Assembly: GCA_947629265.1 (NCBI GenBank)
Contig: CANRCZ010000003.1
Span: 8,359-72,358 of the forward strand
Direction: 5' to 3'
Source: an uncultured Bacilli bacterium
GTDB taxonomy: Bacteria; Bacillota_I; Bacilli_A; RF39; UBA660
Length of the DNA: 64,000 nt
The translations under genes were made by a program, and so were the position numbers. Position 1 is the first letter of the stretch; every line of letters starts with the position of its first letter. The notes below the pieces were generated by a model. It was given only the letters and a program-made list of their open reading frames with translations. It did not search any database and was not told where the DNA came from. This document shows, piece by piece, positions 8,785 through 60,305 of the stretch.

Positions 8785-8925
8785 TATTGTATATCCTCCT
8801 TTCGCCTATATCTAGTATAGACTTGCTCCGTGTAAAAACCTGATTTACCAGTTTCAACTTTTATTTTTTTACAACTTAACCTGGCGTATCAGCAACCTCA
8901 CACATCTAAGCATGCCACACTCATC

Positions 8926-14891: not shown

Positions 14892-15773
14892 TCACTCCTT
14901 TATGTTTAATACTTCTAAAATACGATTTAGATCAGCTACATTAGTAAATGATATGATTATTTTTTTATCTTTTATTTTTATTTTAGTATCTAATTTATCT
15001 CTTAACATATTTTCAACATAAGTATAATCGTTATTATCATTATGTTTAGGTTTGTTGATTTTGACTTTTTTTTCTAAGTTTTCATCGGAAGCGATATTTT
15101 CGATATCACGAACATTCATATTTTCATCGACGATTTTATTCGCTAATTCGATAATTTTATTATCATCTTCTAATTTACTTAATATTCTAGCATGTCCCAT
15201 CGTTATATCTTTACTGTTTACCATGTTTTGAACCTCTAATGGTAATCTTAATAAACCTAAGATATTAGTGATATGACTACGGCTTTTACCTACTTTTTTA
15301 GCTAATTCATCTTGGGTTAAATGTAGTTCATCTAACATTAATTTATAAGCTGAAGCTTCTTCGACAGCTGATAAGTTTTCTCTTTGTAAATTTTCAAGTA
15401 AAGCGATCTCCATCATCTGTTCATCGGAAAAATCTCTTATAATAGCTGGTATTTTAGTAAGTCCGGCTTTTTTAGCAGCGCGAAATCTTCTTTCACCAGC
15501 GATGATATAGTAACCTTTAATACTTTTTTTAATTAGGATTGGTTGAAAAACACCATGTTCTTTTATAGACTCGGTTAATTCATCCAAAGCTTCGTTATCA
15601 AAAGTTTTTCTAGGTTGATATGGATTTGGTCTTAATTCATCTAAGTCTATCTCAAATATTTCTTCGTTATTTATGTTATCGTAAATATTTTTTTCAAATG
15701 ACTCGATATCTAGGTTTTCGGTATTGAATAATTGTTCTAAACCTCGACCTAAAGCTCTTTTTTTATTCTCCAT
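14892..15773 (-). CDS. parB: Chromosome partitioning protein ParB/Spo0J
   Basis: 293-aa ORF with the ParB N-terminal box GERRFRAA and an HTH. Immediately downstream of parA, with overlapping ends. Confidence 0.9.
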   Translation of the reverse strand: MENKKRALGRGLEQLFNTENLDIESFEKNIYDNINNEEIFEIDLDELRPNPYQPRKTFDNEALDELTESIKEHGVFQPILIKKSIKGYYIIAGERRFRAAKKAGLTKIPAIIRDFSDEQMMEIALLENLQRENLSAVEEASAYKLMLDELHLTQDELAKKVGKSRSHITNILGLLRLPLEVQNMVNSKDITMGHARILSKLEDDNKIIELANKIVDENMNVRDIENIASDENLEKKVKINKPKHNDNNDYTYVENMLRDKLDTKIKIKDKKIIISFTNVADLNRILEVLNIKE

Positions 15774-16560
15774 TACGTTCGATCACTTCCTTAGCTAAGT
15801 TAAGATATGCTTCTGTTCCTCTACTTGTTGAATCGTATAGTATTATTGGTTTTCCATGACTTGGTGCTTCTGATAGTTTAACAAGTCTAGGTATTATTGT
15901 ATCGTATACTCTTTCTTTAAAGTAACTTTTTATTTCTTCTACTACCTCTAATCCTAAGTTTGTTCTAGCATCTAACATTGTAAGAAGAACGCCCTCGATA
16001 TCTAAGGTTGGATTTATGTCTTTTTGAGCTAGCATAATTGTACTTAATAGTTGCATTATTCCCTCTAGTGCAAAGAATTCACATTGTACAGGAATAATAA
16101 CTGAATCAGCAGCTGTTAAAGCGTTTATGGTAAGAATACCTAATGATGGTGGACAATCGATTATTATGTAATCGAATAGATCTTTCGCTGGTAGCAAGTG
16201 TTTTTTTAGTTGACCACCTGATTTAAATGATGGATCTAATTTTGATTTTTCAACTAATTCTGTATCGATACCAGCTAGGTTAATAGTAGCTGGTATAGCA
16301 TATAGATTTTTACTTTTAGTTTTGATTACTACGTCTGATAATTCAGCTCTATCATTTAACAAATCGTATACACTTAAATTATAATCACTTTTTGAAATAC
16401 CTACTCCTGTTGTTGAATTTCCTTGTGGATCTAGATCAACTAGTAGGACTTTCTTTTTTAGATATCCAAGTGATGCGGAAAGGTTAATACTGGTTGTTGT
16501 TTTACCTACGCCACCCTTTTGATTAACTAATGCTATAATTTTCCCCATATTCTTCACCAT
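15763..16560 (-). CDS. parA: Chromosome partitioning ATPase ParA/Soj
   Basis: 265-aa ORF with a deviant Walker A (KGGVGKTTTSINL). Confidence 0.9.
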   Translation of the reverse strand: MVKNMGKIIALVNQKGGVGKTTTSINLSASLGYLKKKVLLVDLDPQGNSTTGVGISKSDYNLSVYDLLNDRAELSDVVIKTKSKNLYAIPATINLAGIDTELVEKSKLDPSFKSGGQLKKHLLPAKDLFDYIIIDCPPSLGILTINALTAADSVIIPVQCEFFALEGIMQLLSTIMLAQKDINPTLDIEGVLLTMLDARTNLGLEVVEEIKSYFKERVYDTIIPRLVKLSEAPSHGKPIILYDSTSRGTEAYLNLAKEVIERNGE

Positions 16561-16671: not shown

Positions 16672-17559
16672 CTATAACTTTTCGATTTCTTCTATACTTA
16701 AGCCTGTGTTTCTAGATATAACGTCAAAAGGAATACCATCAGTTTTTAGATTTTTAGCGATTTCGTTGGCTTTTTTCAATTCTCCTTGATTTATTCCTTG
16801 TTCTAAGCCATCTTCTCGAGCTTCGATGATTAGAGTGTTTCTTTCCATTTCTTCACGACTATAATCTGTGTATAGTTCCACAATGTCTTTATCCCTACTC
16901 CTTTTCTCTATCTCTTCTACTAGTTTTCCTTTTGTTTCTTTTGACATTAGATCATCACCTATCGCTTCCTCTATTTCTTCTAAGCTTGTTGCAGTTAATA
17001 ATTTGCACAATCTCGCTTTCTTTTCTTCATCTTTAGTATAACACATTTTTATCCCTCTTACCATATCTACGGAGATTATTTCGATATTTTCACTTAATAT
17101 TTTTCCACTTTCGTTTCTTAAATAATATCTTGAACATATCTTTTCTTGTCCACAATCAAAATTATTTAAACCTATTTGAATGGTCTTATTAATCTGACTA
17201 TAGTTATTATCTCCTCTTTCTAATTGTCTAGAGTGTACATTACATAAGTATACTAAATTTCTCTCTTGTATTCCTCTAGAACTATTATTATTTAATTCGA
17301 TATTTATCATATCGCCATCGTAGTCTAACAATAAGTCTACTTGTTCTCTTCTTTCTTTTTTGTTATATAACTCCAATTCCCTAGTTTTGATTTTCAATCT
17401 TCCTGTTATTTTTTCTAGAGGAATATCTGTTATAATCGATATTAAACTTTCTAGTATGTCGACATTCTTTTCCCTATTTAAAATATCAGTAAATACGAAA
17501 TCAAATGTCATTGGCAGTAACTTTAATTCTTTTTTATTTATGGTATTAATATTTTTCAT
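16672..17559 (-). CDS. Rpn-family recombination-promoting nuclease / putative transposase (PD-(D/E)XK, YhgA-like)
   Basis: 295-aa ORF. Has the N-terminal conserved region of Rpn/transposase_31 proteins and a C-terminal repeat-like tail (EQGINQGELKK...). Confidence 0.7.
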   Translation of the reverse strand: MKNINTINKKELKLLPMTFDFVFTDILNREKNVDILESLISIITDIPLEKITGRLKIKTRELELYNKKERREQVDLLLDYDGDMINIELNNNSSRGIQERNLVYLCNVHSRQLERGDNNYSQINKTIQIGLNNFDCGQEKICSRYYLRNESGKILSENIEIISVDMVRGIKMCYTKDEEKKARLCKLLTATSLEEIEEAIGDDLMSKETKGKLVEEIEKRSRDKDIVELYTDYSREEMERNTLIIEAREDGLEQGINQGELKKANEIAKNLKTDGIPFDVISRNTGLSIEEIEKL

Positions 17560-17889: not shown

Positions 17890-18762
17890 TTATTGGGGTG
17901 GTAATATTAAATTCCATGCATCTTGTCCAAATTCATCGTGTACTTTGCCTGTAGTTTGAATACCAGATTTTAGAACAATGACGGGCCGGAACCCGAGTGG
18001 GTGATAGCTGTAGCAGTAGGAAGAACCACCTTTCGAAGTCGCGTAAAGCAAGCAAGAGTCACCGTTACCGAGATCAGTTCCAGTATAGGTAGTAGCAAAC
18101 CAATACTCTGATCCAGTTGTTCGTAATGAATTACTAGCAGGAGTAATAGCGTCAAACTCAGCTTTAGTCATAGCATATGCATGCTCTGCATATGTTGAAT
18201 TTAAATATTGGTCTTTGGCACGTGCATCTAAGTTAGCTATACTATCACTTGCCTTAGGTCCATGATAGTAACATTCAGGTTGGCCGGCGTGGACTAGATA
18301 AACTTTTCCACTTTGTTTTTTTAATACACGCCAACCTTTTAACGTTGTTTTTAAATTTTCGCTCGAACACCATTCTACACTTGAATTTTTACTCTGTCCA
18401 CTTTTATAACCACCAAATCCTACTTGTGCTGGAATATCAGCTGATGAACTCCATGTACCTGCATTATACGCTACATAATCCCCTACTTGTGCTTTTTCTG
18501 ATAAATCATATGGAACTTTTTTCTCTAAATCAGATACTTGCTTCTTTAAATCATCAATTTGTACTAATGATTTATTAATTACGTCATCTAAAGCAGCTTT
18601 TACAGTTGTAGTTTTTCCATCTTTTCCAGTATAGCTCACTCCTGCACTAGTATATTCATCTAGTCCTCTACTTACACCATTCATTAATGCTACTCCTATT
18701 AATAGTCCAAAAGCAAAGACAAATCTTTTTTTATCAAAAATTCTTGTTAATATTTTTTTCAT
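17890..18762 (-). CDS. Secreted/surface protein, paralogue 1 of a four-member family in this window (N-terminal signal/TM, coiled-coil, Cys-containing globular domain)
   Basis: 290-aa ORF. Motifs shared with 54715.., 55710.. and 63792..: DGVSY, AL D[DE]LIN[KT]SL, GDYV.Y.AG.W, FGGYKA.TSKN.SV, GWRVLKK, YLVHAGQPECYYH, GFRPV[IV]VLKSG, DEFGQ.AW[KN]L. Confidence 0.8.
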   Translation of the reverse strand: MKKILTRIFDKKRFVFAFGLLIGVALMNGVSRGLDEYTSAGVSYTGKDGKTTTVKAALDDVINKSLVQIDDLKKQVSDLEKKVPYDLSEKAQVGDYVAYNAGTWSSSADIPAQVGFGGYKSGQSKNSSVEWCSSENLKTTLKGWRVLKKQSGKVYLVHAGQPECYYHGPKASDSIANLDARAKDQYLNSTYAEHAYAMTKAEFDAITPASNSLRTTGSEYWFATTYTGTDLGNGDSCLLYATSKGGSSYCYSYHPLGFRPVIVLKSGIQTTGKVHDEFGQDAWNLILPPQ

Positions 18763-30967: not shown

Positions 30968-31806
30968 TCTTCACCTCGATGATATATTTTATATATTTCA
31001 CTTTTTGATATTTTCCGCAATTTTGCAACCTCTTTAATAGCTTGTTTTGAATCATAACCTTGAGCTATAAATTCTTCAATATGTTCAGTAATTGACAAGT
31101 TGTCATAGTTTTTCTCTTTTATTTCACCATCCACGATTATTACTAATTCACCTTTAATGTCAACCATTTGTCCTTTGATTTCTGAAACGGTTCCGCGATA
31201 TATTTCTTCGTATTTCTTTGATATTTCCCGGGAAATTGATATTTTTCTATTTCCCAGAATTTCTAATATATCGTCTAAGGTTTCAATTATTCGATGGGGT
31301 GACTCATAAAAAATCATAGTGTATGGTAGATCACTTAATTTTTGTAATTCTTTTTGTTTTTTAGAATGTTTATTATTTAAAAAACCATAAAATAAAAATG
31401 GTTGTGAACTTAATCCTGATGTAATTAAAGCTGGTATCAAAGCGGTTGGTCCAGGTAAGGCTACAACATTGTAATTATTTTCGATCGCTATTTTGACTAG
31501 TTCATAACCGGGATCACTTATAATAGGAGTGCCTCTATCAGTTACAATACCGACATCAAAACCATTTTTTAAATAAGATAGCAGTTTATTATCGTTTTTA
31601 TGTTCATTGAAATTGTGACTAGATATTAGTTTTTTATTTATATCTAAGGATTTTAATAATAAACCAGTTACTCTTGTATCTTCGGAAAAAATAACCTCGA
31701 CTTTTTTTAATGTATTGATAGCCCGCAAAGTTATATCTTCCATATTGCCGATGGGGGTTGGTATTAGATAAACTGTTGGACTATTATCATAACTTTTTTG
31801 TGACAT
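30964..31806 (-). CDS. rsmI: 16S rRNA (cytidine1402-2'-O)-methyltransferase (tetrapyrrole-methylase fold)
   Basis: 280-aa ORF, YabC/RsmI-like (LYLIPTPIGN, SDPG). Confidence 0.85.
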   Translation of the reverse strand: MSQKSYDNSPTVYLIPTPIGNMEDITLRAINTLKKVEVIFSEDTRVTGLLLKSLDINKKLISSHNFNEHKNDNKLLSYLKNGFDVGIVTDRGTPIISDPGYELVKIAIENNYNVVALPGPTALIPALITSGLSSQPFLFYGFLNNKHSKKQKELQKLSDLPYTMIFYESPHRIIETLDDILEILGNRKISISREISKKYEEIYRGTVSEIKGQMVDIKGELVIIVDGEIKEKNYDNLSITEHIEEFIAQGYDSKQAIKEVAKLRKISKSEIYKIYHRGEE

Positions 31807-37020: not shown

Positions 37021-37543
37021 AAATATGTTTCACGTGAAACATTGGTCATTCGTTTTATTATTTTTATTACGTTGATTCTATGTTTCACGTGAAACATTAG
37101 CTATTCGTTTTATTATTCTTACTACGTTATGTTTATGTTTCAAGTGAAACATTAGTTATTCGTTTTATTATTTTTATTACGTTGATTTTATGTTTCACGT
37201 GAAACATTGATTATTCATTTAATTATTTTTATTACGTTGATTTTATGTTTCACGTGAAACATTGATTATTCATTTAATTATTTTTATTACGTTGATTTTA
37301 TGTTTCACGTGAAACATTAGCTATTTACTTTATTATTCTTACTACGTTAAGTTTATGTTTCACGTGAAACATTGGTTATTCATTTTACTATTTTTATTAC
37401 GTTAGTTTTATGTTTCACGTGAAACATTAGCTATTTGTTTTATTATTTTTATTACGTTAGTTTTATGTTTCACGTGAAACATTAGTTATTCGTTTTATTA
37501 TTCTTACTACGTTAATTCAATGTTTCACGTGAAACATTGATCA
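37021..37543. repeat. parS: Tandem array of 10 copies of a ~55-bp unit. Each unit contains the palindromic parS consensus TGTTTCACGTGAAACA. Copies start at 37026, 37081, 37137 (CAAGTG variant), 37191, 37246, 37301, 37356, 37411, 37466 and 37521.
   Basis: Read directly from the sequence. The 16-bp palindrome is identical to the canonical ParB-binding parS. The inter-palindrome segments are near-identical to each other, so they are not unique spacers. Confidence 0.85.
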
Positions 37544-37972
37544 TCATCTTAATGATTTAAAAAAATCTTTCAATAATCCTGCTGTTTCTTCTGATAGAAT
37601 ATCACCAACAATATTTATTTTTTTTATATCACTATTGTGTATTGCACCAAAATTTTCATTTATACTACCATATACTATATTATTAATTCTTGATTGCATT
37701 ATAGCCCCTAAACACATACTACATGGTTCAATAGTTGTATATAACGTACAATTATCAAGATGCCATGTTTTTAATTTCTTACACGCTTTTTCAATTGCTA
37801 TAATTTCAGCATGCTTAGTAGCTATATTTTTATATTCTTTTTGATTGTACCCCCTAGCTATTACCTTATCGTTATATACGATAATAGCCCCTATAGGTAC
37901 ATCACCTTTTTTTAAAGCTTTCTTAGCTTCTTTTATAGCTAATGCCATATATTTTTCATGCATTTTTATCAC
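37544..37972 (-). CDS. tadA: tRNA-specific adenosine deaminase
   Basis: 142-aa ORF with CDA zinc motifs HAEIIAI and PCSMC. Confidence 0.9.
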   Translation of the reverse strand: MIKMHEKYMALAIKEAKKALKKGDVPIGAIIVYNDKVIARGYNQKEYKNIATKHAEIIAIEKACKKLKTWHLDNCTLYTTIEPCSMCLGAIMQSRINNIVYGSINENFGAIHNSDIKKINIVGDILSEETAGLLKDFFKSLR

Positions 37973-37979
37973 CTACAAA

Positions 37980-38060
37980 AAAGCACACACATTAAGTGAT
38001 CCTTAAGGCTGCTGTTTTCCAACTCTGACCTGGTTCGAATATTAATGTTGTGCTATCTAT
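37980..38060 (-). ncRNA. ffs: Small bacterial SRP RNA (4.5S/scRNA), about 75-85 nt
   Basis: The minus strand reads ...GAACCAGGUCAGAGUUGGAAAACAGCAGCC..., the conserved domain-IV motif. A terminal helix forms between AGCACAACAUUAA and UUAAUGUGUGUGCU. Position adjacent to tadA/dnaX matches Bacillus. Confidence 0.6.
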
Positions 38061-38090
38061 AATATATAATAATTAAAAAAAATAATCAAT

Positions 38091-38106
38091 GTTTCACGTG
38101 AAACAT
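38091..38106. promoter_or_regulatory. parS: Isolated 11th perfect parS site (TGTTTCACGTGAAACA). It overlaps the -35 (TTGATT) of the putative ffs promoter on the minus strand.
   Basis: Exact palindrome in the sequence. On the minus strand downstream: ttgatt-N17-tatatt-N6-AGCACA. Confidence 0.75.
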
Positions 38107-45607: not shown

Positions 45608-46957
45608 TCAGTTAATGGTCTTAATCAATTTTTTTATTTCAATTTCTAGGTTAGGATCTTTCGCTATCTGTTTTTTAATCTTTTCAACAGCATGCATAAC
45701 GGTCGTATGGGTTTTTCCACCAAATTCGATACCTATTTTAGCGAGTGGTTGATCGAATTCTAGTCTACATATGTACATAGCTATTTGTCTAGGGGTATTG
45801 ATATTCGCTAATCTTTTAGTACCTCTTATTTCTTCAAGGGTTATATTATAATGTTCGGCTACAACTTGTTGGACTTGTTGAATTTTATTTTTAGAATGAA
45901 GATTGTCTTTAAATTCTTCTTTTAAAGCTTCCATCGCGATATCTAAAGTAATAATACCGGAGTTCATCATCGTTGCATAAGCGACAACTCTCGTGATCGT
46001 ACCCTCTAGTTTTCTTATGTCACTAGTACAGTTACTAGCGATATATTCTTTAACATTTTGTGGAAAATTACCGTTTATCATGTGACCCGCTACTTTATTG
46101 TCGATAATATCCATCCTTAAATTAAATTCTGGTGGTAGAATATCGATGCTTAAGCCCCATGTAAACCTAGTTCTAAGTCTTTCTTCTAGTAATTTTAAGT
46201 CTTCTGGCGATCTATCTGATGATATTATTATTTGTTTATTATTGTCGTGTAGGACATTAAAGGTATTGAAAAATTCTTGTTGTGTCTGATTAGCGCTACC
46301 TAAGTACTGAATATCATCGATAATAAGAACGTCAATATCTCGGTATTTCTTTTTGAAAAATTCGACATTATCAAAGTTATTATTAGCTTTTTTACGACTA
46401 ATACCGACAAAATCATCAACAAATTGTTCACAAGTAACATATAGAACTTTTTTCTTGCTGTTATTTACAATATAGTTACCAATAGCATGCATCAGGTGGG
46501 TTTTACCAAGTCCGCTCGAACTATACATAAATAAAGGATTATACATTGTACCTGGGTGTTCAGCGACTGCTAAAGCTGTAAGTTTCGCTAATCTGTTGCT
46601 CTCTCCTACGATGAAATTATCGAATGTATATTTAGAATTTAAGTTCGATTCAAATGCTAAAGTTGATGGAACACCGATATCATCAGTATCAATTTCAATA
46701 TTTTTTTCGATTTCTTCTGGTAATAGATATTCAAATTTAAAGTTAGAACCCGCGATTTCATTAAATATTTCTACTATTAATGAGTTATAGTTTTCTTTTA
46801 AATTCTTTTTAGTGACATGATAAGGTACGATGACCTTGGCGGTATCACCACTTAAATCATATAGTTCGGTATTAGAAAACCATGTTTCAAATGCCATCGG
46901 AGATAATTCTGGTTTGATTTTTTCTAAAAATGCATTCCATAGTTTTATCTTATCCAC
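45608..46957 (-). CDS. dnaA: Chromosomal replication initiator DnaA (GTG start)
   Basis: 449-aa ORF with an AAA+ domain (GLGKTHLMHAIGN) and a C-terminal DnaA-box-binding HTH. Confidence 0.95.
   Translation of the reverse strand: MDKIKLWNAFLEKIKPELSPMAFETWFSNTELYDLSGDTAKVIVPYHVTKKNLKENYNSLIVEIFNEIAGSNFKFEYLLPEEIEKNIEIDTDDIGVPSTLAFESNLNSKYTFDNFIVGESNRLAKLTALAVAEHPGTMYNPLFMYSSSGLGKTHLMHAIGNYIVNNSKKKVLYVTCEQFVDDFVGISRKKANNNFDNVEFFKKKYRDIDVLIIDDIQYLGSANQTQQEFFNTFNVLHDNNKQIIISSDRSPEDLKLLEERLRTRFTWGLSIDILPPEFNLRMDIIDNKVAGHMINGNFPQNVKEYIASNCTSDIRKLEGTITRVVAYATMMNSGIITLDIAMEALKEEFKDNLHSKNKIQQVQQVVAEHYNITLEEIRGTKRLANINTPRQIAMYICRLEFDQPLAKIGIEFGGKTHTTVMHAVEKIKKQIAKDPNLEIEIKKLIKTIN
46949..46957 (+). promoter_or_regulatory. 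Perfect consensus DnaA box TTATCCACA overlapping the dnaA start codon
   Basis: The sequence reads cttatccacaacc; the last three bases (CAC) are the reverse complement of the dnaA GTG start. Confidence 0.5.
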
Positions 46958-47440
46958 AACCAGTCACCTCCATATAAAGTTAAATCTACTTACATTGTAC
47001 TACCTTTTTAAGTAAAAAAAAAGAAAAAATGTCGAAAAAAGTAATAAAAAATGAAATAAACAGACTTTTGAACATTAAATTTATCATATTTTATCAAAGT
47101 TTAGAAAGTTTTGAACAATTTTGTCGACAATTTTAATTAAAATTAGCCTAATGTTGAAAGTTTTATACACTAAAATGTTCAAAACTATGTATATTTATTA
47201 AAATACTTGATGATTTGAATGTTTAAAACTATGTTAAAAGATAAAAATTAGAATAATTTTGATAATCTGATATGTTCAATACTAATTATTTATCCAAATT
47301 TTAGACATTAAATAATTAAAAAATTAGAAATAATACTAAAAAAGCTATAATAAACATAAACTTTTAATTGACAAAAGCAGATTTAATCTATATAATTGAA
47401 AGAGCAATGCAAAAATTATAGATAATAGGAGGTGTATGCT
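46958..47440. other. oriC: Candidate oriC / divergent promoter region between dnaA and rpmH. Very AT-rich, with repeated AATGTT(C/T)AAAACTATG and TTTTGAACA motifs and a TTATCCAAA box.
   Basis: dnaA-rpmH divergent arrangement. Motifs at ~47061, 47108, 47174, 47218, 47270 and 47291. A related copy sits at ~45521 in the dnaA-dnaN spacer. Confidence 0.45.
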
Positions 47441-47563
47441 ATGAAAAGAACATTCCAACCTAATAATAGAAAAAGAAGTAAAAAACAAGGTTTTTTTTCT
47501 CGTATGAAATCTGGAATAATAAATCGTAGAAGAAAAAAAGGAAGAAAAGTATTATCTAGATAA
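47441..47563 (+). CDS. rpmH: 50S ribosomal protein L34 (40 aa)
   Basis: ATG preceded by AGGAGG. Translation [40 protein letters not shown]. Upstream of rnpA. Confidence 0.85.
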
Positions 47564-47610
47564 ATCAACCACTTTTTAGTGGCTTTTTCTTTAGAAAGAC
47601 GAGTGATGTA

Positions 47611-47934
47611 ATGAAAAAAATCAACATTTTAAAATCAAATCTTGATTTTAATCGAATAATTAGAACTTATAAACCAATCAAAAGTAAAAATTTTGTAATA
47701 TATTTTGAATATAATACTAATGACACTTATCATTTTGGTATATCAGTATCTAAAAAAATCGGTAATGCTGTTACTAGAAATAAATATAAAAGAAGAATAA
47801 GATCCATAATTTCTAAAAAAAGCTATAAAAATAATTTCAATTGTATTATAATATTAAAGAAGAGTGTTTTAGAATGTAGTTATAAAGAATTAGAAGAGGA
47901 ATTATTAGATAATATGAAAAAGGTGATTAAATGA
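47611..47934 (+). CDS. rnpA: Ribonuclease P protein component
   Basis: 107-aa basic ORF between rpmH and yidC. Confidence 0.85.
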   Translation: MKKINILKSNLDFNRIIRTYKPIKSKNFVIYFEYNTNDTYHFGISVSKKIGNAVTRNKYKRRIRSIISKKSYKNNFNCIIILKKSVLECSYKELEEELLDNMKKVIK

Positions 47935-54124: not shown

Positions 54125-54568
54125 TTATAAATTGTTGTTAGTAGGAACTATATAGCCATCACAGTGTTTACATTTAAAGATCGGTTCGGAATTTAATTGA
54201 TTACCTACTTTATTAGCGGTTTTGATTAATTCAACTAGATCGTAAGGAATTTCTGTTTCATAATCGCATCTATTACATTTATATTTTTTAAAGTTATTAT
54301 TATCTATGTTATTAGTTTCTAAATTTTTATTATCTTCATCGATAAAAAATTTATACATATCAACGCCTAATATTAAGGAAATTCTATATAAAGCACCTAA
54401 TGAAAAAGATTGGTGTTTTTTACTTTCTAATCCTGAAACAAATGAAAGAGAATAGTTTATTTTTTCCGCTAATTTGGCTTGTGTTAACTTTTTTTCTTTA
54501 CGATATTTTTTAACATTTAAACCAACAACTCCATATATATAATTTTCATCATCTTTATTAAATGTCAT
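54125..54568 (-). CDS. XRE-family HTH regulator with a C-terminal CxxC...CxxC zinc-ribbon-like domain, divergent from family paralogue 2
   Basis: 147-aa ORF with an HTH (LTQAKLAEKINYSLSFVSGLE) and Cys pairs (CNRCDYE...CKHCDG). Confidence 0.6.
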   Translation of the reverse strand: MTFNKDDENYIYGVVGLNVKKYRKEKKLTQAKLAEKINYSLSFVSGLESKKHQSFSLGALYRISLILGVDMYKFFIDEDNKNLETNNIDNNNFKKYKCNRCDYETEIPYDLVELIKTANKVGNQLNSEPIFKCKHCDGYIVPTNNNL

Positions 54569-54714: not shown

Positions 54715-55593
54715 ATGATTATGAAAATGTTTAATTATTTGAAAAAATATTACAAGTTAGTTATATCATTTGTTTTAGGTGTAATGATAACTACTATGGT
54801 AGGTTATGGAGTTGGTTATGCTGTTGATAATATACCTAGTGATGGTGTTAGTTATGTAAAGAATAATAAAACTATTACTGTTAAACAAGCTTTAGATGAG
54901 TTAATAAATACGTCACTAACTAGAATTGATGATTTGGAAGCAAAGGCTAAAATTTATAAGTATGCTTATTTATATGATGCCGTTAATGTTGGAGATTATG
55001 TAGATTATGATGCTGGTAATTGGACAGCTGACGTTCCAATACCAAGTGTAGTAGGAGAATTTGGTGGATATAAAGCTAATACAAGTAAAAATGCTAGTGT
55101 GGTATGTTGGGAGCCAAGAGGTACAACAGACTTGAAAGGCTGGCGTGTACTTAAAAAAGTAAATAACCAAGTCTACCTAGTCCACGCTGGCCAACCTGAG
55201 TGTCATTATCACAAAAATGGATATAATGATACAAGTATCGAAGCTTTAAATAAACGAGCAAATGAATATAAGAATGAATATGCGGTGTCCGCTCATGCTA
55301 TGAATTATCAAGAAGCATATGATATTGATAAAACTGAATTAGATGTTGCTACCAATAATGATTTACGAAAAACTGGAGCATTTTATTATCTGGCAACACC
55401 TTACCAAACTGAAGATGATAAAAATTGGTTGTATGGTGTTAGGCAAGATGGTGCTATAACTTATATAGGTTATGCAACTGGTCTAGCGACTGGCTTTCGT
55501 CCTGTTGTAGTTTTAAAAGCAGGTATTTTAACGACAGGAAAAGGAACAGATGAATTTGGACAACCTGCATGGAAACTAGTTGAAATGAAATAA
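54715..55593 (+). CDS. Secreted/surface protein, paralogue 2 (intact ATG start, no poly-G)
   Basis: 292-aa ORF sharing the family motifs. RBS gagggag. A TGgTATAAT extended -10 sits at ~54680. Confidence 0.8.
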   Translation: MIMKMFNYLKKYYKLVISFVLGVMITTMVGYGVGYAVDNIPSDGVSYVKNNKTITVKQALDELINTSLTRIDDLEAKAKIYKYAYLYDAVNVGDYVDYDAGNWTADVPIPSVVGEFGGYKANTSKNASVVCWEPRGTTDLKGWRVLKKVNNQVYLVHAGQPECHYHKNGYNDTSIEALNKRANEYKNEYAVSAHAMNYQEAYDIDKTELDVATNNDLRKTGAFYYLATPYQTEDDKNWLYGVRQDGAITYIGYATGLATGFRPVVVLKAGILTTGKGTDEFGQPAWKLVEMK

Positions 55594-55709: not shown

Positions 55710-56514
55710 ATGAAAGAGAAAATAAAGCTTGGGGGGGGGTTATCTACTAATAATTTTGGTACTATTAGTAGTAACTAATGGTATTACGTATGGAGCTAGT
55801 CAGTTAACTAGCGATGGTGTGAGCTACCAGAAAAATGGTGAAACTATAACAGTGACGAAAGCGCTAGACGATTTAATCAATACGTCACTAACTAAAATTG
55901 ATGAATTAGAGGCAAAAGCTAAAATTTATAGATATGCTGAATTGGTAGACGTTGTTGAAATTGGAGATTATGTAAATTATGATGCTGGTAAATGGTCTAC
56001 GTCGAAAACAAAGCCAGAAAGTCAGGGGCAGTTCGGTGGATATAATGCTAATACTAGCAAAAATGCCAGTGTTGCATGTTACGAAGAAACAGCTCCAAAA
56101 TATCAAGGATGGAGAGTTTTGTCAAAAGATACAAATTCTAGAACTGTAACTATCATTCATGCTGGTCAACCCGAATGTTATTATCATGCTAGTGGATATA
56201 GCGATGCAAGTGTAGAACTTTTAAATAAAGAAGCAGAACAATATATGAATACATATGCAAAGTCAGCACGTTCAATTATTGGAGATGACATAAATTCTTT
56301 GGGTGGTAATGATTTAAGAAATATCGGATCAGAATATTGGTTGGCGTCTAAGAATGGTCAATACCATTTATATATGGTTCGTGCATCAGGTGGAGAAGCA
56401 TGGTCTCATACTGCTGCAATGGGTTTCCGTCCAGTAATTGTCTTAAAATCTGAAACATTAACCAATGGTAAAATAAAAGATCAATTTAATAATGATGCTT
56501 GGAAACTAATTTAA
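55710..56514 (+). CDS. Secreted/surface protein, paralogue 3. Putatively phase-variable and currently out of frame: ATG...poly-G(9) in frame 1, the rest of the ORF in frame 2.
   Basis: ATG at 55710 with RBS taggag. MKEKIKLGGG then runs into a stop. The 261-aa ORF 55729-56514 is in the +1 frame; G8 instead of G9 would fuse the two. Confidence 0.7.
55731..55739 (+). repeat. Homopolymeric G(9) tract in the 5' coding region; candidate slipped-strand phase-variation switch
   Basis: Counted directly: gctt-GGGGGGGGG-ttatc. Confidence 0.9.
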
Positions 56515-56610
56515 CTATATATATAAAAGATTAATCACTAACAAAATTAATCTTTTTTTATTATTTCCCAAAAATTGATTGCATTATTTTCAAAAATATA
56601 GTATCATTGT

Positions 56611-58176
56611 ATGTATAAGAATAAGAAAGGGTGTACTGGTATGAATATAGAAAGAGAAGTACAAATTTTAAATATAAATGATATTTTGCCTAATAGATTT
56701 CAACCAAGAATTACCTTTGATGAAAAAGCTATCATGGAATTAGCGGAATCAATCAAAACTCATGGTGTAATTCAACCAATTGTCGTAAGAAAAGTAGCAG
56801 ATAAATATGAAATTATCGCTGGTGAAAGAAGATATAAAGCTAGTATCATCGCAGGTAAAACAACCATTCCAGCTATTGTAACTGATTTAGATGATAAAGA
56901 TAGTGCCGAGGTAGCGTTAATTGAAAACGTTCAAAGACAAGATTTAACACCTATCGAAGAAGCTATATCTTATAAAAAAATCTTAGATATGGGATATCTA
57001 AATCAATCAGAACTAGCAACAAAATTAGGCAAAACACAATCAACAATCGCTAATAAACTACGTCTTTTAAATTTAACAGACGAGGTTCAAGAAGCATTAT
57101 TAAAAGAAAAAATATCTGAAAGACACGCCCGTTCTTTATTAAAATTGGATAAATCTAAACAAAATGAAATGCTTAATCGTATTATAACTGAACGAATGAC
57201 AGTTAGAAAAACCGATGAAGAAATTGCAAAAATAACTAACAACGTCGAAATGTTAGATTTCGGCAAAAAGGAGGATGTGTCTATGAATAATCAAATAAAT
57301 AGTTCTAATATTCCAACTTCACCAATAATTGAACCAAATCCTATGAATAACGTGCCAAACGTACCAAATGTTTCTCAAGACTTAAATGTTGATAATATGG
57401 TACCAGAACCAAATATCGAACCATTCAATATCGATACTTTATCTACTAATGATAATCTTCAAACAGTACCAACATCAAATAGCTATTTAGATGAAATACC
57501 AACAACAGAAACTATCAATCCAGGATTTATGGATATTAATAAAATCGAAGCTGAAGCTACTAATATCAATCCTACTATGGGTAATAGCGGTTCATTCATT
57601 AATAATGAACCAAACCAAAACCTAGATAGCATAATTAATCAACCAACATATACAACACCAATTGATCAACCAAATGATAATGGTCAACCAGCAGGTGGAA
57701 GATTTTTCTCTAATCAAATAGAAGAACCTAATCAACCTCAAGATAATAATTTAGATAATATGTTTGATAGTAACAACATATTTACTCAAGATATGAATTT
57801 TAATCAACCACAATTTGATCAACCATATCAAAATCAAACCAATAACGCTAACAACAATGCTGGCTTTAACCCAGCTTTAGCAAGTTTTAACTTAGGTAGT
57901 CAACCACAATTTGATGCTCCACAACCAGAACCAGCACCACAAAATATAAATACAAGTGTTGTTGAACTTGGTGGAACAGGATTTATGAACGAAGAACCAA
58001 TCTTACAACCATTAATGAACAATAACGAACCAGTTGTTAGACATGATATGAAAGAAGCTATATCAATAATTAGAAGCTGTTCAAAACAAATTGAAAACTT
58101 AGGATTTAAGTTAGACGTTGAAGAGATAGATTTTGAAAATTTCTATCAAGCAACATTCAAAATCGAAAAACCATAA
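56611..58176 (+). CDS. ParB/Noc-family paralogue: ParB N-domain, HTH, then a ~300-aa N/Q/P-rich low-complexity region and a short C-terminal domain. The likely start is the ATG at 56641 after RBS agaaaggg.
   Basis: 521-aa ORF. GERRYKAS arginine patch, HTH (QSELATKLGKTQSTIANKL), then ...NNQINSSNIPTSPIIEPNPMNNVPNVPNVSQ...QPQFDQPYQNQTNNANNNAGFNPA... Confidence 0.75.
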   Translation: MYKNKKGCTGMNIEREVQILNINDILPNRFQPRITFDEKAIMELAESIKTHGVIQPIVVRKVADKYEIIAGERRYKASIIAGKTTIPAIVTDLDDKDSAEVALIENVQRQDLTPIEEAISYKKILDMGYLNQSELATKLGKTQSTIANKLRLLNLTDEVQEALLKEKISERHARSLLKLDKSKQNEMLNRIITERMTVRKTDEEIAKITNNVEMLDFGKKEDVSMNNQINSSNIPTSPIIEPNPMNNVPNVPNVSQDLNVDNMVPEPNIEPFNIDTLSTNDNLQTVPTSNSYLDEIPTTETINPGFMDINKIEAEATNINPTMGNSGSFINNEPNQNLDSIINQPTYTTPIDQPNDNGQPAGGRFFSNQIEEPNQPQDNNLDNMFDSNNIFTQDMNFNQPQFDQPYQNQTNNANNNAGFNPALASFNLGSQPQFDAPQPEPAPQNINTSVVELGGTGFMNEEPILQPLMNNNEPVVRHDMKEAISIIRSCSKQIENLGFKLDVEEIDFENFYQATFKIEKP

Positions 58177-58256
58177 AATTACATTTATTATGTAATTTTT
58201 TTAATCTTTAAATTATCACAATTATATGATATTATATATCAAGAAAGAGGAATAAT

Positions 58257-58688
58257 ATGGACTTATATAATATGCTTACTAATATATCAAATATCGATAT
58301 TGAAACCGAAATAAAAAATGCAATCACTAAAATAAAAAAAGAATACAACAATCTAACAACCGATAGAACATGTTTTATATATAGTAGTTTAATATATGAA
58401 GAACTATCAAAAAAACATATTTTAACAAAAATAATAAGTACTAAAGATTTTAATATGGAATATGAGCATCGTTTTATCTTAATCCCCTATCAACAAGATA
58501 ACTACTTTTTAATCGATTTAACATATCAACAATTCTTTAATAAAGTACCTACTTATTTTCAAAGTTTAATCGAAAATGGTTATCAACTAGTAACTAAAGA
58601 TGATATTAAATTTTATATCGATTTAATTATAAACGCTACGTCAAAAAAGATTACTAATAATGAACAAAATAAATATAGTTCCAAATAA
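58257..58688 (+). CDS. Hypothetical protein
   Basis: 143-aa ORF with no recognisable motifs. Confidence 0.45.
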   Translation: MDLYNMLTNISNIDIETEIKNAITKIKKEYNNLTTDRTCFIYSSLIYEELSKKHILTKIISTKDFNMEYEHRFILIPYQQDNYFLIDLTYQQFFNKVPTYFQSLIENGYQLVTKDDIKFYIDLIINATSKKITNNEQNKYSSK

Positions 58689-58701
58689 AAAATAGGTTAT
58701 C

Positions 58702-59205
58702 CTATTTTTTTATAAATAATTTTTTAATTTTATCTAATAATCCACTTAAATATAAAATATTTAAGATTAAACAAATTAATGTTAAAGATAGTGCAAAATC
58801 TTTCATATTTTGACAAGGTCTACTAGGAATATAACCAAAACCATTTGTTATTTCAAGTAAAAGATAAAATACAAAGATGATTAAAGTTCCTAATGACATA
58901 TCAAGTATTTTCATTTTTAAAACCTTTTTTTCAATATCACTATATTGTGCAACCTTTGTTAATATATCCTTTGTTTCACTATTCATTTTATCACTCTTCC
59001 TCTCTCCATTAATGATTTCTCTAATATCGACGTCATAAAAATCCGCTAATTCAACTATAATACTTAAATCAGGCATATTATTCCCTGTTTCCCAACGAGA
59101 TACGGTTCTGTTTGATACATTAAATTTTTCAGCTAATTGTTCTTGAGTTAAATTTTTTTCTATTCGTAATCTTTTTAAGAAAATTCCAATTTTTCCTTGA
59201 TCCAT
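58702..59205 (-). CDS. Membrane-anchored XRE-family HTH regulator (N-terminal HTH plus two C-terminal TM helices)
   Basis: 167-aa ORF with an HTH (LTQEQLAEKFNVSNRTVSRWETG) and hydrophobic C-terminal segments. Confidence 0.6.
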   Translation of the reverse strand: MDQGKIGIFLKRLRIEKNLTQEQLAEKFNVSNRTVSRWETGNNMPDLSIIVELADFYDVDIREIINGERKSDKMNSETKDILTKVAQYSDIEKKVLKMKILDMSLGTLIIFVFYLLLEITNGFGYIPSRPCQNMKDFALSLTLICLILNILYLSGLLDKIKKLFIKK

Positions 59206-59351
59206 ATTTTGTAACTCCTCCTTTCAAATTAATCATAATATAATTGATTAATAAATTACACGACATAAAATGAGAATGACATTTTTAATAGATTTTATCT
59301 TAAAAATTTATTTAATTATAACATTATTCATAAAAAAACATCAATTGATGT

Positions 59352-60305
59352 TTATATAACAAAGACTAGTGTATAGTAAACAGCGAATAAAACTAACATT
59401 ATACCACCCTCTAATTTAGTAATTTTTCTATCTGTTGTTGCAAAGATAAAGATTAATAAAGAAGAGATAATCAACATAACTAAATCCATCATTTGAAAAC
59501 TTGTCGGTGTAATCGTTCCAAATATCGCTACTGGAATACCTAAGACTACACAAATATTAAATATGTTACTACCGATAATATTACCAACTAATAGATCCTG
59601 CTCCCCTTTTTTAGAAGATACGATAGTCGTAACTAATTCTGGTAATGACGTACCAAACGCTATGATAGTAAGAGCGATAATTCTATCACTTAATCCTAAT
59701 ATCCTAGCGATACTTGATGCATTATCAACTACTAGATCACTACCGATAATTATACCGATAATACCTACTATTACTAAAATAAGCGATTTACCTAATCTAA
59801 ATTGTGGTTTTTCATTATCTTTTTTTTCTTTTTTTTGTAATGCTAATGTAATTAAATAATAGACGAATACAGTAAAAAATAACAATATAACTAAAGCATC
59901 AGAACGAGTTATTTGATTTACAGTATAATTCGCTAATTTAACATCCAAAAATATTACTACTAATAAGGTCGATATTAATAATGCAAGTGGTAATTCTTTA
60001 CGTACAGTATTATCCTTAATTTTAATTGGACATATAATAGCCGCAATACCTAAAATTAATAAAATATTTAATATATTACTACCGATGACGTTTCCTAAAA
60101 CCATATCCGTACTACCAGACGCTAAAGCACTCATCGATACAGCAAATTCAGGAGCACTAGTACCAAAAGCTACGATCGTTAAACCTATCAACATTTTAGG
60201 AACTTTAAAATTTTGAGCAGTTGAAGATGCTCCGTCGACAAAAATATCAGCACCTTTAATTAAAAATATAAATCCAAGTATCAATAATAAAATATTGAAA
60301 AACAT
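59352..60305 (-). CDS. Ca2+/Na+ antiporter (CaCA family, YrbG-like)
   Basis: 317-aa ORF with two alpha-repeats (GNVIGSNILN, GNIIGSNIFN). Confidence 0.8.
   Translation of the reverse strand: MFFNILLLILGFIFLIKGADIFVDGASSTAQNFKVPKMLIGLTIVAFGTSAPEFAVSMSALASGSTDMVLGNVIGSNILNILLILGIAAIICPIKIKDNTVRKELPLALLISTLLVVIFLDVKLANYTVNQITRSDALVILLFFTVFVYYLITLALQKKEKKDNEKPQFRLGKSLILVIVGIIGIIIGSDLVVDNASSIARILGLSDRIIALTIIAFGTSLPELVTTIVSSKKGEQDLLVGNIIGSNIFNICVVLGIPVAIFGTITPTSFQMMDLVMLIISSLLIFIFATTDRKITKLEGGIMLVLFAVYYTLVFVI

What the first reader, a model, noticed from the sequence alone, without database searches (positions are those of the whole stretch)
56611..58176. Second ParB/Noc-like protein with a ~300-residue N/Q/P-rich, prion-like low-complexity linker
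The N-terminal ~200 aa are a bona fide ParB N-domain plus HTH (GERRYKAS...). They are followed by a long asparagine/glutamine/proline-rich region (many PN, QP and NN repeats) before a short structured C-terminus. The position near rsmG corresponds to noc in Bacillus, but Noc has no such linker. Such regions often drive condensate formation or are slippage-prone. Combined with the unusual parS array, this suggests a non-standard partition/nucleoid-occlusion system.
Basis: partly seen in the sequence, partly recalled or inferred. Interest (0 to 1): 0.6.

Follow-up and report, generated by a model that had tools for sequence, protein, structure and literature searches.

The report
Noc protein with giant disordered tether
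This gene encodes a relative of the Bacillus cell-division safeguard Noc whose two folded parts are joined by a roughly 260-residue floppy, acidic tether and which lacks Noc's usual membrane anchor; hundreds of uncultured gut bacteria share this design, and nobody has studied it.

Summary
A 511-aa protein (probable start 56641; the ORF can extend to 56611) has a ParB N-domain, a ParB HTH, a 262-aa disordered N/Q/P-rich acidic segment and a 47-aa folded C-terminus.

It belongs to the Noc lineage and is not a second partition ParB:
- Its best solved relatives are the Noc structures.
- Its DNA-reading residues are Q-K-N-R (Noc is QKKR, ParB is RTAG).
- Its C-terminal domain is Noc-type (hhalign 98%).
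- Relatives sit in the order mnmG-rsmG-noc-(parA-parB).
- The Bacillus Noc-binding site TATTTCCCGGGAAATA is strongly enriched in this clade: 14 perfect sites in 958 kb, against none in shuffles.

Two features break the Noc pattern. The N-terminal membrane-targeting helix is absent. The short basic linker is replaced by a long acidic disordered tether.

The tether is present in all 186 relatives examined, with total protein lengths of 311-804 aa. Acidity and three short motifs in fixed order are conserved. N/Q richness is not (11 of 186). One motif, GG[KR]FF, repeats the R-F-F core of Noc's membrane helix.

"Prion-like", "slippage-prone" and the link to the parS array are not supported.

Verdict: a new variant of a known kind, of moderate interest.

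The parts
56575..56602 (+). Promoter-like TTGATT-16 nt-TATAGT just upstream of the gene
   Evidence: Consensus scan. The number of such sites in the region does not exceed the shuffle expectation, so this is weak evidence. It would place the transcription start near 56611 and so argues against the 56611 ATG as the start codon.
56641..58176 (+). Coding sequence of the Noc-lineage protein (511 aa plus stop). The longest possible ORF starts at 56611 (521 aa).
   Evidence: P0001 is 100% identical and 511 aa; SD-like AAAGGGTG before 56641.
56656..56934 (+). ParB-type N-terminal (CTP-binding) domain, with GERRYKAS at 56821-56844 and ENVQRQ at 56923-56940
   Evidence: Pfam ParB_N E 6e-33. G61 E62 R63 R64 and E95 N96 Q98 R99 are invariant in 39 relatives. 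Aligned to the Noc structures 7NG0, 7NFU and 7OL9.
56938..57237 (+). HTH DNA-binding domain, with the recognition segment GKTQSTIANKLRLLNL (57028-57075) and SERHAR (57115-57132). Specificity residues are Q, K, N, R.
   Evidence: Pfam HTH_ParB E 8e-32. Alignment to Noc. QKNR in 118 of 120 homologues against QKKR in 119 of 119 canonical Nocs. The rule that Q173 and R201 need only one lysine at position 179 or 184 comes from PMC7383237.
57241..58026 (+). 262-aa disordered, acidic, N/Q/P-rich tether (aa 201-462)
   Evidence: Composition and charge. pLDDT below 50. No Pfam hit. 39% identity to the nearest relative, against 93% for the N-terminal half.
57283..57333 (+). Motif A, MNNQINSSNIPTSPIIE (family consensus MNNDxLKEFNIPTxPIIE)
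   Evidence: I-P-[TS]-x-P-I is conserved at over 90% in the contexts that matched.
57514..57567 (+). Motif B, INPGFMDINKIEAEATNI (family consensus INPGFMD[IV]xKIxxEAxDI). It is the only helix predicted in the tether.
   Evidence: found in 102 of 185 relatives, always before motif C. AlphaFold2 helix at 299-305 with pLDDT about 70. No relative in the PDB.
57694..57720 (+). Motif C, GGRFFSNQI (family consensus GG[KR]FF[NT]MF). It contains the only arginine of the tether and the window of highest helical hydrophobic moment.
   Evidence: Found in 45 of 70 long-linker representatives, against 7.9 expected from shuffled linkers. The R-F-F tripeptide equals R7-F8-F9 of the B. subtilis Noc helix.
57712..57951 (+). 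Most Q/N-rich 80-aa stretch (32 Q/N, no K/R, 10 P, 9 D/E)
58027..58173 (+). Noc-type C-terminal dimerisation domain (helix plus two strands)
   Evidence: AlphaFold2 pLDDT above 90. Matches positions 211-255 of the 255-position NCBIfam Noc model. Family CTD profile against canonical Noc CTD profile gives hhalign 98.2%, E 5.6e-14. It has no hit to Pfam ParB_C, whereas the window's own ParB does.
31222..31237 (.). Predicted binding site TATTTCCCGGGAAATT, a perfect 14-bp NBS core
   Evidence: It is the only match with up to 2 mismatches in the window.

Best explanation
The gene encodes a member of the Noc branch of the ParB family.

Shown by sequence:
- It keeps the CTP-binding N-domain, an HTH with the residues that read the Noc-binding site (NBS), and the Noc-type dimerising C-domain.
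- NBS sites are conserved in its clade.
- The N-terminal amphipathic membrane helix and the helix that follows it are missing.
- The short basic DBD-CTD linker is replaced by a 262-aa acidic, disordered tether. The tether carries three conserved peptides in a fixed order.

Inferred working model:
- Dimers load at NBS sites, bind CTP, close into sliding clamps and spread, as Noc does.
- The two long acidic tethers enlarge and loosen the clamp and keep the C-domain away from DNA.
- The tethers display the three peptides as contact points.
- GG[KR]FF is the most likely membrane or partner anchor, and may stand in for the lost N-terminal helix. Through it, chromosome-bound complexes could still hinder division over the nucleoid.

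My probabilities for the steps:
- Noc-lineage NBS binder: about 0.9.
- The conserved peptides mediate a specific contact with membrane or protein: about 0.6.
- That contact is the membrane, through GG[KR]FF: about 0.3.
For: Identity:
- The best PDB hits are Noc (7NG0 E 1e-59, 7NFU, 7OL9), ahead of all ParBs.
- The NCBIfam Noc model scores 282 bits, against 242 bits for the window's true ParB.
- The specificity residues are Q/K/N/R. PMC7383237 shows that Q173 and R201 plus one lysine are enough for NBS binding.
- The CTD is Noc-type.
- The order mnmG-rsmG-gene-(uvrB or parA-parB) holds in most of the 80 GTDB loci.
- There are 14 perfect NBS cores and 23 with at most one mismatch in 958 kb. Twenty shuffles gave 0 perfect cores and a single one-mismatch site.

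Missing helix:
- Only 14-19 residues precede LPNRFQPR in nearly all relatives, allowing for a few doubtful start codons. Canonical Nocs have 36-56 residues there and begin MKH[PS]FSRFFGLGEKE.

Tether:
- All 186 relatives have an acidic linker, with net charge -10 to -81 and length 63-555 aa.
- The three motifs are conserved, and motif B comes before motif C in 102 of 102 cases.
- [KR]F[FIVL] occurs in 45 of 70 long-linker representatives, against 7.9 expected.
- An MTS-like N-terminus occurs in 24 of 52 short-linker representatives but only 1 of 70 long-linker ones.
- R7E and F9E abolish Noc membrane binding, and a foreign helix on a flexible linker can replace the native one (PMC4331003).
Against: - The score is below NCBIfam's Noc cut-off (282 against 315).
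- Position 184 is N, not K.
- An HMM of motif C finds nothing significant at the N-termini of short Nocs. The resemblance therefore rests on one tripeptide and on general hydrophobicity.
- About a quarter of relatives lack a recognisable motif C.
- AlphaFold2 does not predict motif C as structured.
- In the window protein motif C is degenerate (GGRFFSNQI rather than GGKFFNMF).
- In a neighbour-joining tree the nearest sister groups are short Noc-like proteins that also lack an N-terminal extension. The helix may therefore have been lost before the tether grew, without any relocation.
- A strongly acidic tether should be repelled by anionic membranes.
- No functional data exist for any member.
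Confidence: 0.5

Rival explanations
1. The tether is a prion-like or condensate-forming domain. Its N/Q-rich sequence would drive phase separation or aggregation of the DNA-bound protein, and that would be its function.
For: The window protein has 32 Q/N in its best 80-aa window, with no K/R there and several F/Y. The whole segment is predicted to be disordered.
Against: Only 11 of 186 relatives reach 30 Q/N per 80 aa. N ranges from 3 to 30% and Q from 0 to 15%, so the composition is lineage-specific. The tether is strongly acidic (net -29) and 11.5% proline, which from general knowledge disfavours amyloid-type prion domains. The conserved features are charge and short motifs, not Q/N content.
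Confidence: 0.12
2. The tether is a largely neutral spacer. It would have grown by indels in AT-rich, reduced genomes, and only its presence as a flexible connection would matter. The apparent motifs would be leftovers with no separate role.
For: The linker is 39% identical between the closest relatives, against 93% for the N-terminal half, and has many indels. Length varies nine-fold and composition drifts. One member of the clade has shrunk back to a 31-aa linker (P0365).
Against: The net charge is negative in 186 of 186 relatives and K/R are about nine-fold depleted. Motifs A, B and C are conserved across relatives that differ widely elsewhere in the linker, and keep an invariant order. Motif C is far above the shuffle expectation.
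Confidence: 0.2
3. It is a second partition ParB that works on the unusual ten-fold parS array in the window.
For: It is a ParB-family paralogue close to the origin. A 10-copy parS array lies 19 kb away.
Against: It has Q and R where parS readers have R and G. It has no N-terminal ParA-contacting LGRGL peptide, no adjacent parA and no ParB_C domain. The window already has a canonical ParA/ParB pair.
Confidence: 0.03
4. The long linker is an assembly, frameshift or sequencing artefact.
For: None found.
Against: The reading frame is uninterrupted. The identical gene occurs in an independent ENA contig. More than 180 relatives have the same architecture and a conserved C-domain in frame.
Confidence: 0.01

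Closest known systems
Nucleoid occlusion protein Noc of Bacillus subtilis and Geobacillus thermoleovorans (PDB 7OL9, 7NFU, 7NG0, 6Y93; NCBIfam TIGR04285)
   Same: ParB-type CTP-binding N-domain with intact GERR and ENxQR boxes. HTH with Q173, K179 and R201, and a nearly identical recognition segment (GKTQSTIANKLRLLNL against GKGQSTIANKLRLLKL). Noc-type C-domain. Gene located after rsmG. The same NBS sequence is present in the genomes.
   Different: It lacks the N-terminal amphipathic membrane helix and the second helix, so it is about 23 residues shorter at the N-terminus. The DBD-CTD linker is 262 aa and acidic, rather than 2-13 aa and basic. Position 184 is N, not K. It scores below the curated family cut-off.
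Chromosomal ParB/Spo0J (the window's own copy at 14892-15773, minus strand)
   Same: Same N-domain and HTH fold, 49% identity over 184 residues.
   Different: ParB has R/G specificity residues, an N-terminal LGRGLEQLF peptide, a Pfam ParB_C domain, an adjacent parA and a short linker.
Short Noc-like proteins without an N-terminal extension (252-270 aa; e.g. P0253, P0275, P0258)
   Same: They are the nearest sister groups in the neighbour-joining tree and also lack the N-terminal helix.
   Different: Their linkers are short and mostly basic or neutral. Their function and hosts are unknown, because the library gives no names.
FtsZ C-terminal linker and SSB disordered linker (functional analogues only; from general knowledge, not tested here)
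   Same: A disordered tether whose length and composition vary widely, joining a folded core to conserved short peptides that bind membrane anchors or partner proteins.
   Different: These are unrelated proteins. Here the conserved peptides lie inside the tether, and a folded dimerisation domain follows it.

Membership tests
Noc (nucleoid occlusion protein) | ParB-type N-domain with CTP-binding boxes (GERRxR; ENxQR) | tested here: met
   Pfam ParB_N E 6e-33. GERRY and ENVQR are invariant in 39 relatives. Aligned to Noc structures.
Noc (nucleoid occlusion protein) | HTH with NBS-specificity residues Q173 and R201, plus a lysine at position 179 and/or 184 | tested here: met
   Q, K, N, R. The rule comes from PMC7383237.
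Noc (nucleoid occlusion protein) | NBS sites (TATTTCCCGGGAAATA) present in the genome | tested here: met
   One perfect core in the window. Fourteen perfect cores in 958 kb of window plus related loci, against 0 in 20 shuffles.
Noc (nucleoid occlusion protein) | Gene located next to rsmG (gidB), upstream of soj-spo0J | tested here: met
   It is directly after rsmG in most of the 80 related loci, and many then continue with parA-parB. In the window, three genes (2.5 kb) are inserted between rsmG and this gene, and parAB lies elsewhere.
Noc (nucleoid occlusion protein) | Highly conserved N-terminal amphipathic membrane-targeting helix (aa 1-15), which is required for function | tested here: not met
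   An upstream stop codon limits the N-terminus. Sixteen residues (26 with the longest ORF) precede PNRFQPR and contain no hydrophobic motif. Canonical Nocs start MKH[PS]FSRFFGLGEKE. The requirement for function is from PMC4331003.
Noc (nucleoid occlusion protein) | Noc-type C-terminal domain | tested here: met
   NCBIfam Noc model positions 211-255, E 0.015. Profile-profile comparison gives 98.2%.
Noc (nucleoid occlusion protein) | Score above the curated NCBIfam TIGR04285 cut-off (315 bits) | tested here: not met
   282 bits. The tether splits the match. Public records name relatives only as 'ParB/RepB/Spo0J family partition protein'.
Noc (nucleoid occlusion protein) | CTP-dependent clamp closure, membrane binding and inhibition of division over the nucleoid | not testable with these tools
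   Needs biochemistry and cell biology.
Chromosomal partition ParB/Spo0J | parS-reading residues (R173, G201), an N-terminal ParA-contacting peptide, a ParB_C domain and an adjacent parA | tested here: not met
   All four features are found instead in the ParB at 14892-15773.
Prion-like / Q/N-rich domain | At least 30 Q/N in an 80-residue window (criterion recalled from Michelitsch & Weissman 2000, not checked here) | tested here: met
   32 Q/N in aa 358-437.
Prion-like / Q/N-rich domain | The Q/N-rich character is conserved among orthologues | tested here: not met
   11 of 186 relatives reach 30 per 80 aa. N ranges from 3 to 30% and Q from 0 to 15%.
Prion-like / Q/N-rich domain | A positive score from a prion-domain predictor (PLAAC or PAPA), or amyloid or condensate formation | not tested
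   No such tool was available. The net charge of -29 and 11.5% proline argue against it.

The most novel reading that the evidence does not exclude
In a large clade of uncultured gut Bacilli, Noc has been rebuilt. The CTP-gated N-terminal membrane helix is gone. The DNA clamp is instead closed by two 60-550-residue acidic disordered tethers that carry conserved peptides. One of these, GG[KR]FF, would be the relocated membrane or partner anchor. The clamp would then have a very large lumen and a polymer-brush surface. It would occlude division, or organise the origin region, by a mechanism different from that of the Bacillus protein.
Probability: 0.25. Interest if true: 0.7.

Novelty: new variant of a known kind. 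Interest (0 to 1): 0.55.

Why it matters
[quoted passage not shown] This work identifies a mostly monophyletic sub-family that keeps the CTP domain, NBS reading and the C-domain. It covers at least 80 GTDB species, and the pattern scan suggests hundreds more. It also makes up about half of the 150 most Noc-like 50%-identity clusters. The sub-family has no N-terminal helix and has a tether 10-40 times longer than normal and of opposite charge.

This gives natural material for three open questions:
- How long and how charged the DBD-CTD tether of a ParB-family clamp can be.
- Whether membrane attachment must come from the N-terminus.
- What nucleoid occlusion looks like in small-genome, uncultured gut Bacilli.

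It also shows that current annotation rules file these proteins as generic ParB.

Tried and rejected
1. An HMM of motif C was searched against short Noc-like proteins, to test whether it matches their N-terminal helices. Scores were about zero and no better than on reversed sequences. There is therefore no statistical support for homology, and the relocation idea remains an inference.

2. A motif B consensus was searched against the PDB. Only chance-level hits were found.

3. Pfam was run on the tether alone and gave no family.

4. Tandem-repeat and slippage explanations were rejected, because only two trivial micro-repeats are present.

5. The parS-binding second-ParB reading was rejected on specificity residues and domain content.

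6. The artefact reading was rejected because an independent contig is identical.

7. The literature search found no paper describing long-linker Noc proteins.

8. NCBI taxonomy for the named relatives (Candidatus Ventrenecus, Candidatus Coprovivens) gives no order-level placement. My assignment of the clade to RF39-like Bacilli is from memory and was not tested.

9. The promoter scan around the gene does not exceed the shuffle expectation.
Full report
**Observation.** The ORF 56611..58176 (+) is real and encodes 521 aa. No ORF of 60 aa or more overlaps it on the opposite strand. The upstream sequence has a Shine-Dalgarno-like AAAGGGTG before the second ATG, at 56641. A promoter-like TTGATT-16-TATAGT ends at 56602. 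Public gene calls for the identical protein use 511 aa (P0001). I therefore take 56641 as the start and number residues on the 511-aa form.

Pfam finds ParB_N (E 6e-33) and HTH_ParB (E 8e-32) and nothing further along.

Residues 201-462 contain N 19.8%, P 11.5% and Q 8.0%, about 3-4 times the level in the other ORFs of the window. This segment has only 4 K/R against 33 D/E, a net charge of -29. QP and EP dipeptides exceed what the composition predicts, while PN and NN do not. The DNA has no meaningful tandem repeats.

AlphaFold2, run with a 39-sequence alignment, gives a confident fold for residues 1-200. Residues 203-462 have pLDDT below 50, except for one short helix at 299-305. Residues 470-509 form a confident helix-strand-strand domain.

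An independent ENA contig carries the identical gene. The linker is about 260 residues rather than about 300.

**What it is.** The window holds a canonical ParA (15763-16560, minus strand) and ParB (14892-15773, minus strand). That ParB has an N-terminal LGRGLEQLF peptide and a Pfam ParB_C domain. The protein under study is different in several ways:

- Its best solved relatives are the Noc proteins of Geobacillus and Bacillus (E 1e-59 to 1e-50), ahead of every ParB.
- The NCBIfam Noc model scores it at 282 bits over model positions 1-211, against 242 bits for the window's ParB.
- Its last 52 residues on their own match model positions 211-255.
- A profile of the family's C-domains matches a profile of canonical Noc C-domains with 98.2% probability, E 5.6e-14.

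The protein is therefore a Noc with a roughly 260-residue insertion exactly at the DBD-CTD linker.

The four specificity positions defined by Jalal et al. 2020 are RTAG in ParB and QKKR in Noc. Here they read Q-K-N-R. QKNR occurs in 118 of 120 close homologues, and QKKR in 119 of 119 canonical Nocs. That paper shows that Q173 and R201 need only one lysine, at position 179 or 184, to read the NBS.

The NBS itself is present. There is one perfect ATTTCCCGGGAAAT core at 31223 in the window. Across 958 kb of window plus related loci there are 14 perfect cores and 23 with at most one mismatch. Twenty composition-preserving shuffles gave no perfect core and a single one-mismatch site. Most of the real sites carry the full Bacillus 16-mer TATTTCCCGGGAAATA.

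In most of the 80 GTDB loci the gene directly follows mnmG-rsmG. In many it is then followed by parA-parB, which is the Bacillus gidA-gidB-noc-soj-spo0J order. In the window, three extra genes sit between rsmG and this gene.

**What is unusual.** Canonical Nocs begin MKH[PS]FSRFFGLGEKE and have 36-56 residues before the PNRFQPR motif. Adams et al. 2015 describe this N-terminus as extremely conserved, predicted as an amphipathic helix in all homologues they examined, and required for function. In that work K2E, F5E, R7E and F9E abolish membrane localisation. Jalal et al. 2021 show that CTP gates this helix.

Here an upstream stop codon limits the N-terminus to 16 residues (26 with the longest ORF) before the motif, and these contain no hydrophobic motif. 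Nearly all 120 database homologues and the 67 parsed GTDB loci likewise have only 14-19 residues there, allowing for a few doubtful start codons. A defining Noc feature is therefore tested and not met.

The second unusual feature is the linker. It is 2-13 residues and net basic in 120 canonical Nocs. In this family it is 63-555 residues (median 298) and net acidic in 186 of 186 members, from -10 to -81.

**What is conserved in the tether.** It is not the N/Q content. N ranges from 3 to 30%, Q from 0 to 15% and P from 2 to 21%. Only 11 of 186 relatives reach 30 Q/N in any 80-residue window, although the window protein does, with 32.

Between the closest relatives the N-terminal half is 93% identical, the C-domain 80% and the tether 39%, with many indels. 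Against this background three islands stand out:

- Motif A: MNNDxLKEFNIPTxPIIE.
- Motif B: INPGFMD[IV]xKIxxEAxDI. This is the only helix AlphaFold2 predicts in the tether.
- Motif C: GG[KR]FF[NT]MF.

Motif B precedes motif C in 102 of 102 proteins that have both.

In the window protein motif C reads GGRFFSNQI. It holds the only arginine of the tether, and it is the 10-residue window with the highest helical hydrophobic moment (0.60). The value for the first ten residues of Bacillus and Geobacillus Noc is 0.50-0.55. Its R-F-F core is the same tripeptide as R7-F8-F9 of the Bacillus helix.

**Wider family.** B. subtilis Noc was searched against 1.84 billion representative proteins. Of the 150 best clusters, 122 could be parsed, and they fall into two classes.

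| Feature | Short linker (52 clusters) | Long linker (70 clusters) |
|---|---|---|
| N-terminal extension of 6 aa or more | 37 | 4 |
| MTS-like N-terminus | 24 | 1 |
| Linker charge | 48 of 52 net zero or basic | 69 of 70 net acidic |
| [KR]F[FIVL] in the linker | 1 | 45 |

For the long-linker class, shuffled linkers give 7.9 [KR]F[FIVL] matches on average, with a maximum of 14 in 200 shuffles.

In a neighbour-joining tree of the N-terminal half, 68 of 71 long-linker proteins form one clade that contains a single short member. The nearest sister groups are short proteins (252-270 aa) that also lack an N-terminal extension. The helix may therefore have been lost before the tether expanded.

The hosts are uncultured gut Bacilli MAGs from human, mouse, rabbit, ruminant and chicken. 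They are variously labelled Bacilli, Tenericutes, Mollicutes or Erysipelotrichaceae. NCBI names the proteins only as generic ParB-family partition proteins.

**How it most likely works.**

Shown by sequence:
- An intact CTP-binding N-domain.
- NBS-type recognition residues.
- A Noc-type dimerisation domain.
- Conserved NBS sites in the clade.

Inferred:
- The protein loads at NBS sites, closes into a CTP-dependent clamp and spreads, as Noc does.
- The two long acidic tethers cannot bind DNA electrostatically, unlike the basic linker of Noc.
- They should enlarge the clamp lumen and act as flexible spacers that present motifs A-C.

I consider it likely (about 0.6) that these motifs make specific contacts. 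It is possible (about 0.3) that motif C supplies the membrane contact that the missing N-terminal helix provides in Bacillus. A foreign helix on a flexible linker can replace the native one in Bacillus, so the position of the anchor may be tolerant.

Evidence against:
- An HMM of motif C does not detect the N-termini of short Nocs.
- About a quarter of relatives lack motif C.
- AlphaFold2 does not predict it as structured.
- The acidic context should weaken binding to anionic lipids.
- The sister groups lack the helix without having a tether.

**Rivals.**
- Prion-like or condensate role: the composition is not conserved, and charge and proline content are unfavourable. I give it 0.12.
- Neutral spacer: this fits the rapid divergence, but not the universal acidity or the conserved, ordered motifs. 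I give it 0.2.
- Second partition ParB for the parS array: contradicted by the specificity residues and domain content. I give it 0.03.
- Artefact: excluded.

**Comparison and novelty.** The protein works like Noc, and descends from Noc, in DNA recognition, nucleotide binding and dimerisation. It fails two membership tests: the N-terminal helix and the curated score cut-off. I found no paper describing this architecture. I rate it a new variant of a known kind.

It would interest ParB/Noc specialists for three reasons:
- It contradicts the reported universality of the N-terminal helix.
- It offers a natural extreme of tether length and charge in a CTP clamp.
- It is common among uncultured gut Bacilli.

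The mechanism remains untested.

Noticed in passing
window 37026-37536 and 38090-38105: Ten copies of a 55-bp tandem unit each carry the perfect parS palindrome TGTTTCACGTGAAACA; the copy at 37136 has one mismatch. An eleventh, isolated perfect parS lies at 38090, beside the SRP RNA gene and just downstream of the 3' end of gyrA. With up to 2 mismatches allowed, 0.09 matches are expected by chance and 22 are found, counting both strands. This is presumably the loading site for the canonical ParB at 14892-15773. The regular 55-bp spacing is unusual.
   Followed up: partly
window 54715-55593 (+), 55729-56514 (+), 17890-18762 (-): Three paralogous proteins of about 260-290 aa have an N-terminal membrane anchor or signal sequence. 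They share motifs (DGVSY..TITVK.ALD.LI, GQPECYYH, GFRPV[IV]VLK) and have no Pfam or NCBIfam hit. Two are inserted between rsmG and the noc-like gene. The third lies two ORFs upstream of parA, next to the ORF at 16672-17559.
   Followed up: partly
related loci L006, L007, L033, L043, L074 (about 100-330 bp before the noc-like gene) and L045, L056, L070, L074, L079 (positions about 1870-1900): Perfect NBS sites recur at similar positions in different species. One group lies inside or just after the 3' end of rsmG, immediately upstream of the noc-like gene. Another lies about 1.5 kb upstream of mnmG. This suggests conserved, possibly autoregulatory or origin-proximal, loading sites.
   Followed up: partly
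representative proteins P0253, P0258, P0266, P0273, P0275, P0291 (252-270 aa) and P0267 (675 aa): A group of short Noc-like proteins has Q..R specificity residues but no N-terminal extension at all. P0267 is a separate 675-aa protein with an N-terminal MALFNRKDK and a 420-aa linker of net charge -85. Its C-terminus differs from that of the family studied here.
   Followed up: no
window 57001-60000: GC skew turns negative (-0.17 at 57-58 kb) on what should be the leading strand to the right of the origin. Within 57-58 kb this coincides with the C-rich Pro and Gln codons of the tether.
   Followed up: no
window 45608-47934: This looks like the replication origin region. dnaA (45608-46957, minus strand) faces rnpA (47611, plus strand) across a 650-bp AT-rich gap, and the cumulative GC-skew minimum lies at about 46-47 kb. 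The Noc-like gene lies about 10 kb to one side. The parS array lies about 9 kb and parAB about 30 kb to the other side.
   Followed up: no
window 54125-54568 (-) and 58702-59205 (-): Two XRE-type HTH proteins flank the noc-like region. The first has a C-terminal CxxC...CxxC zinc-ribbon-like tail. The second has C-terminal hydrophobic segments. Together with ORF 58257-58688, which has no family hit, they are absent from this position in most related loci and look like local insertions.
   Followed up: no
window 37968-38064 (-) and 8802-8916 (-): Rfam finds a bacterial small SRP RNA (59.6 bits) and an S10-Clostridia ribosomal protein leader (36.1 bits, just above threshold).
   Followed up: no
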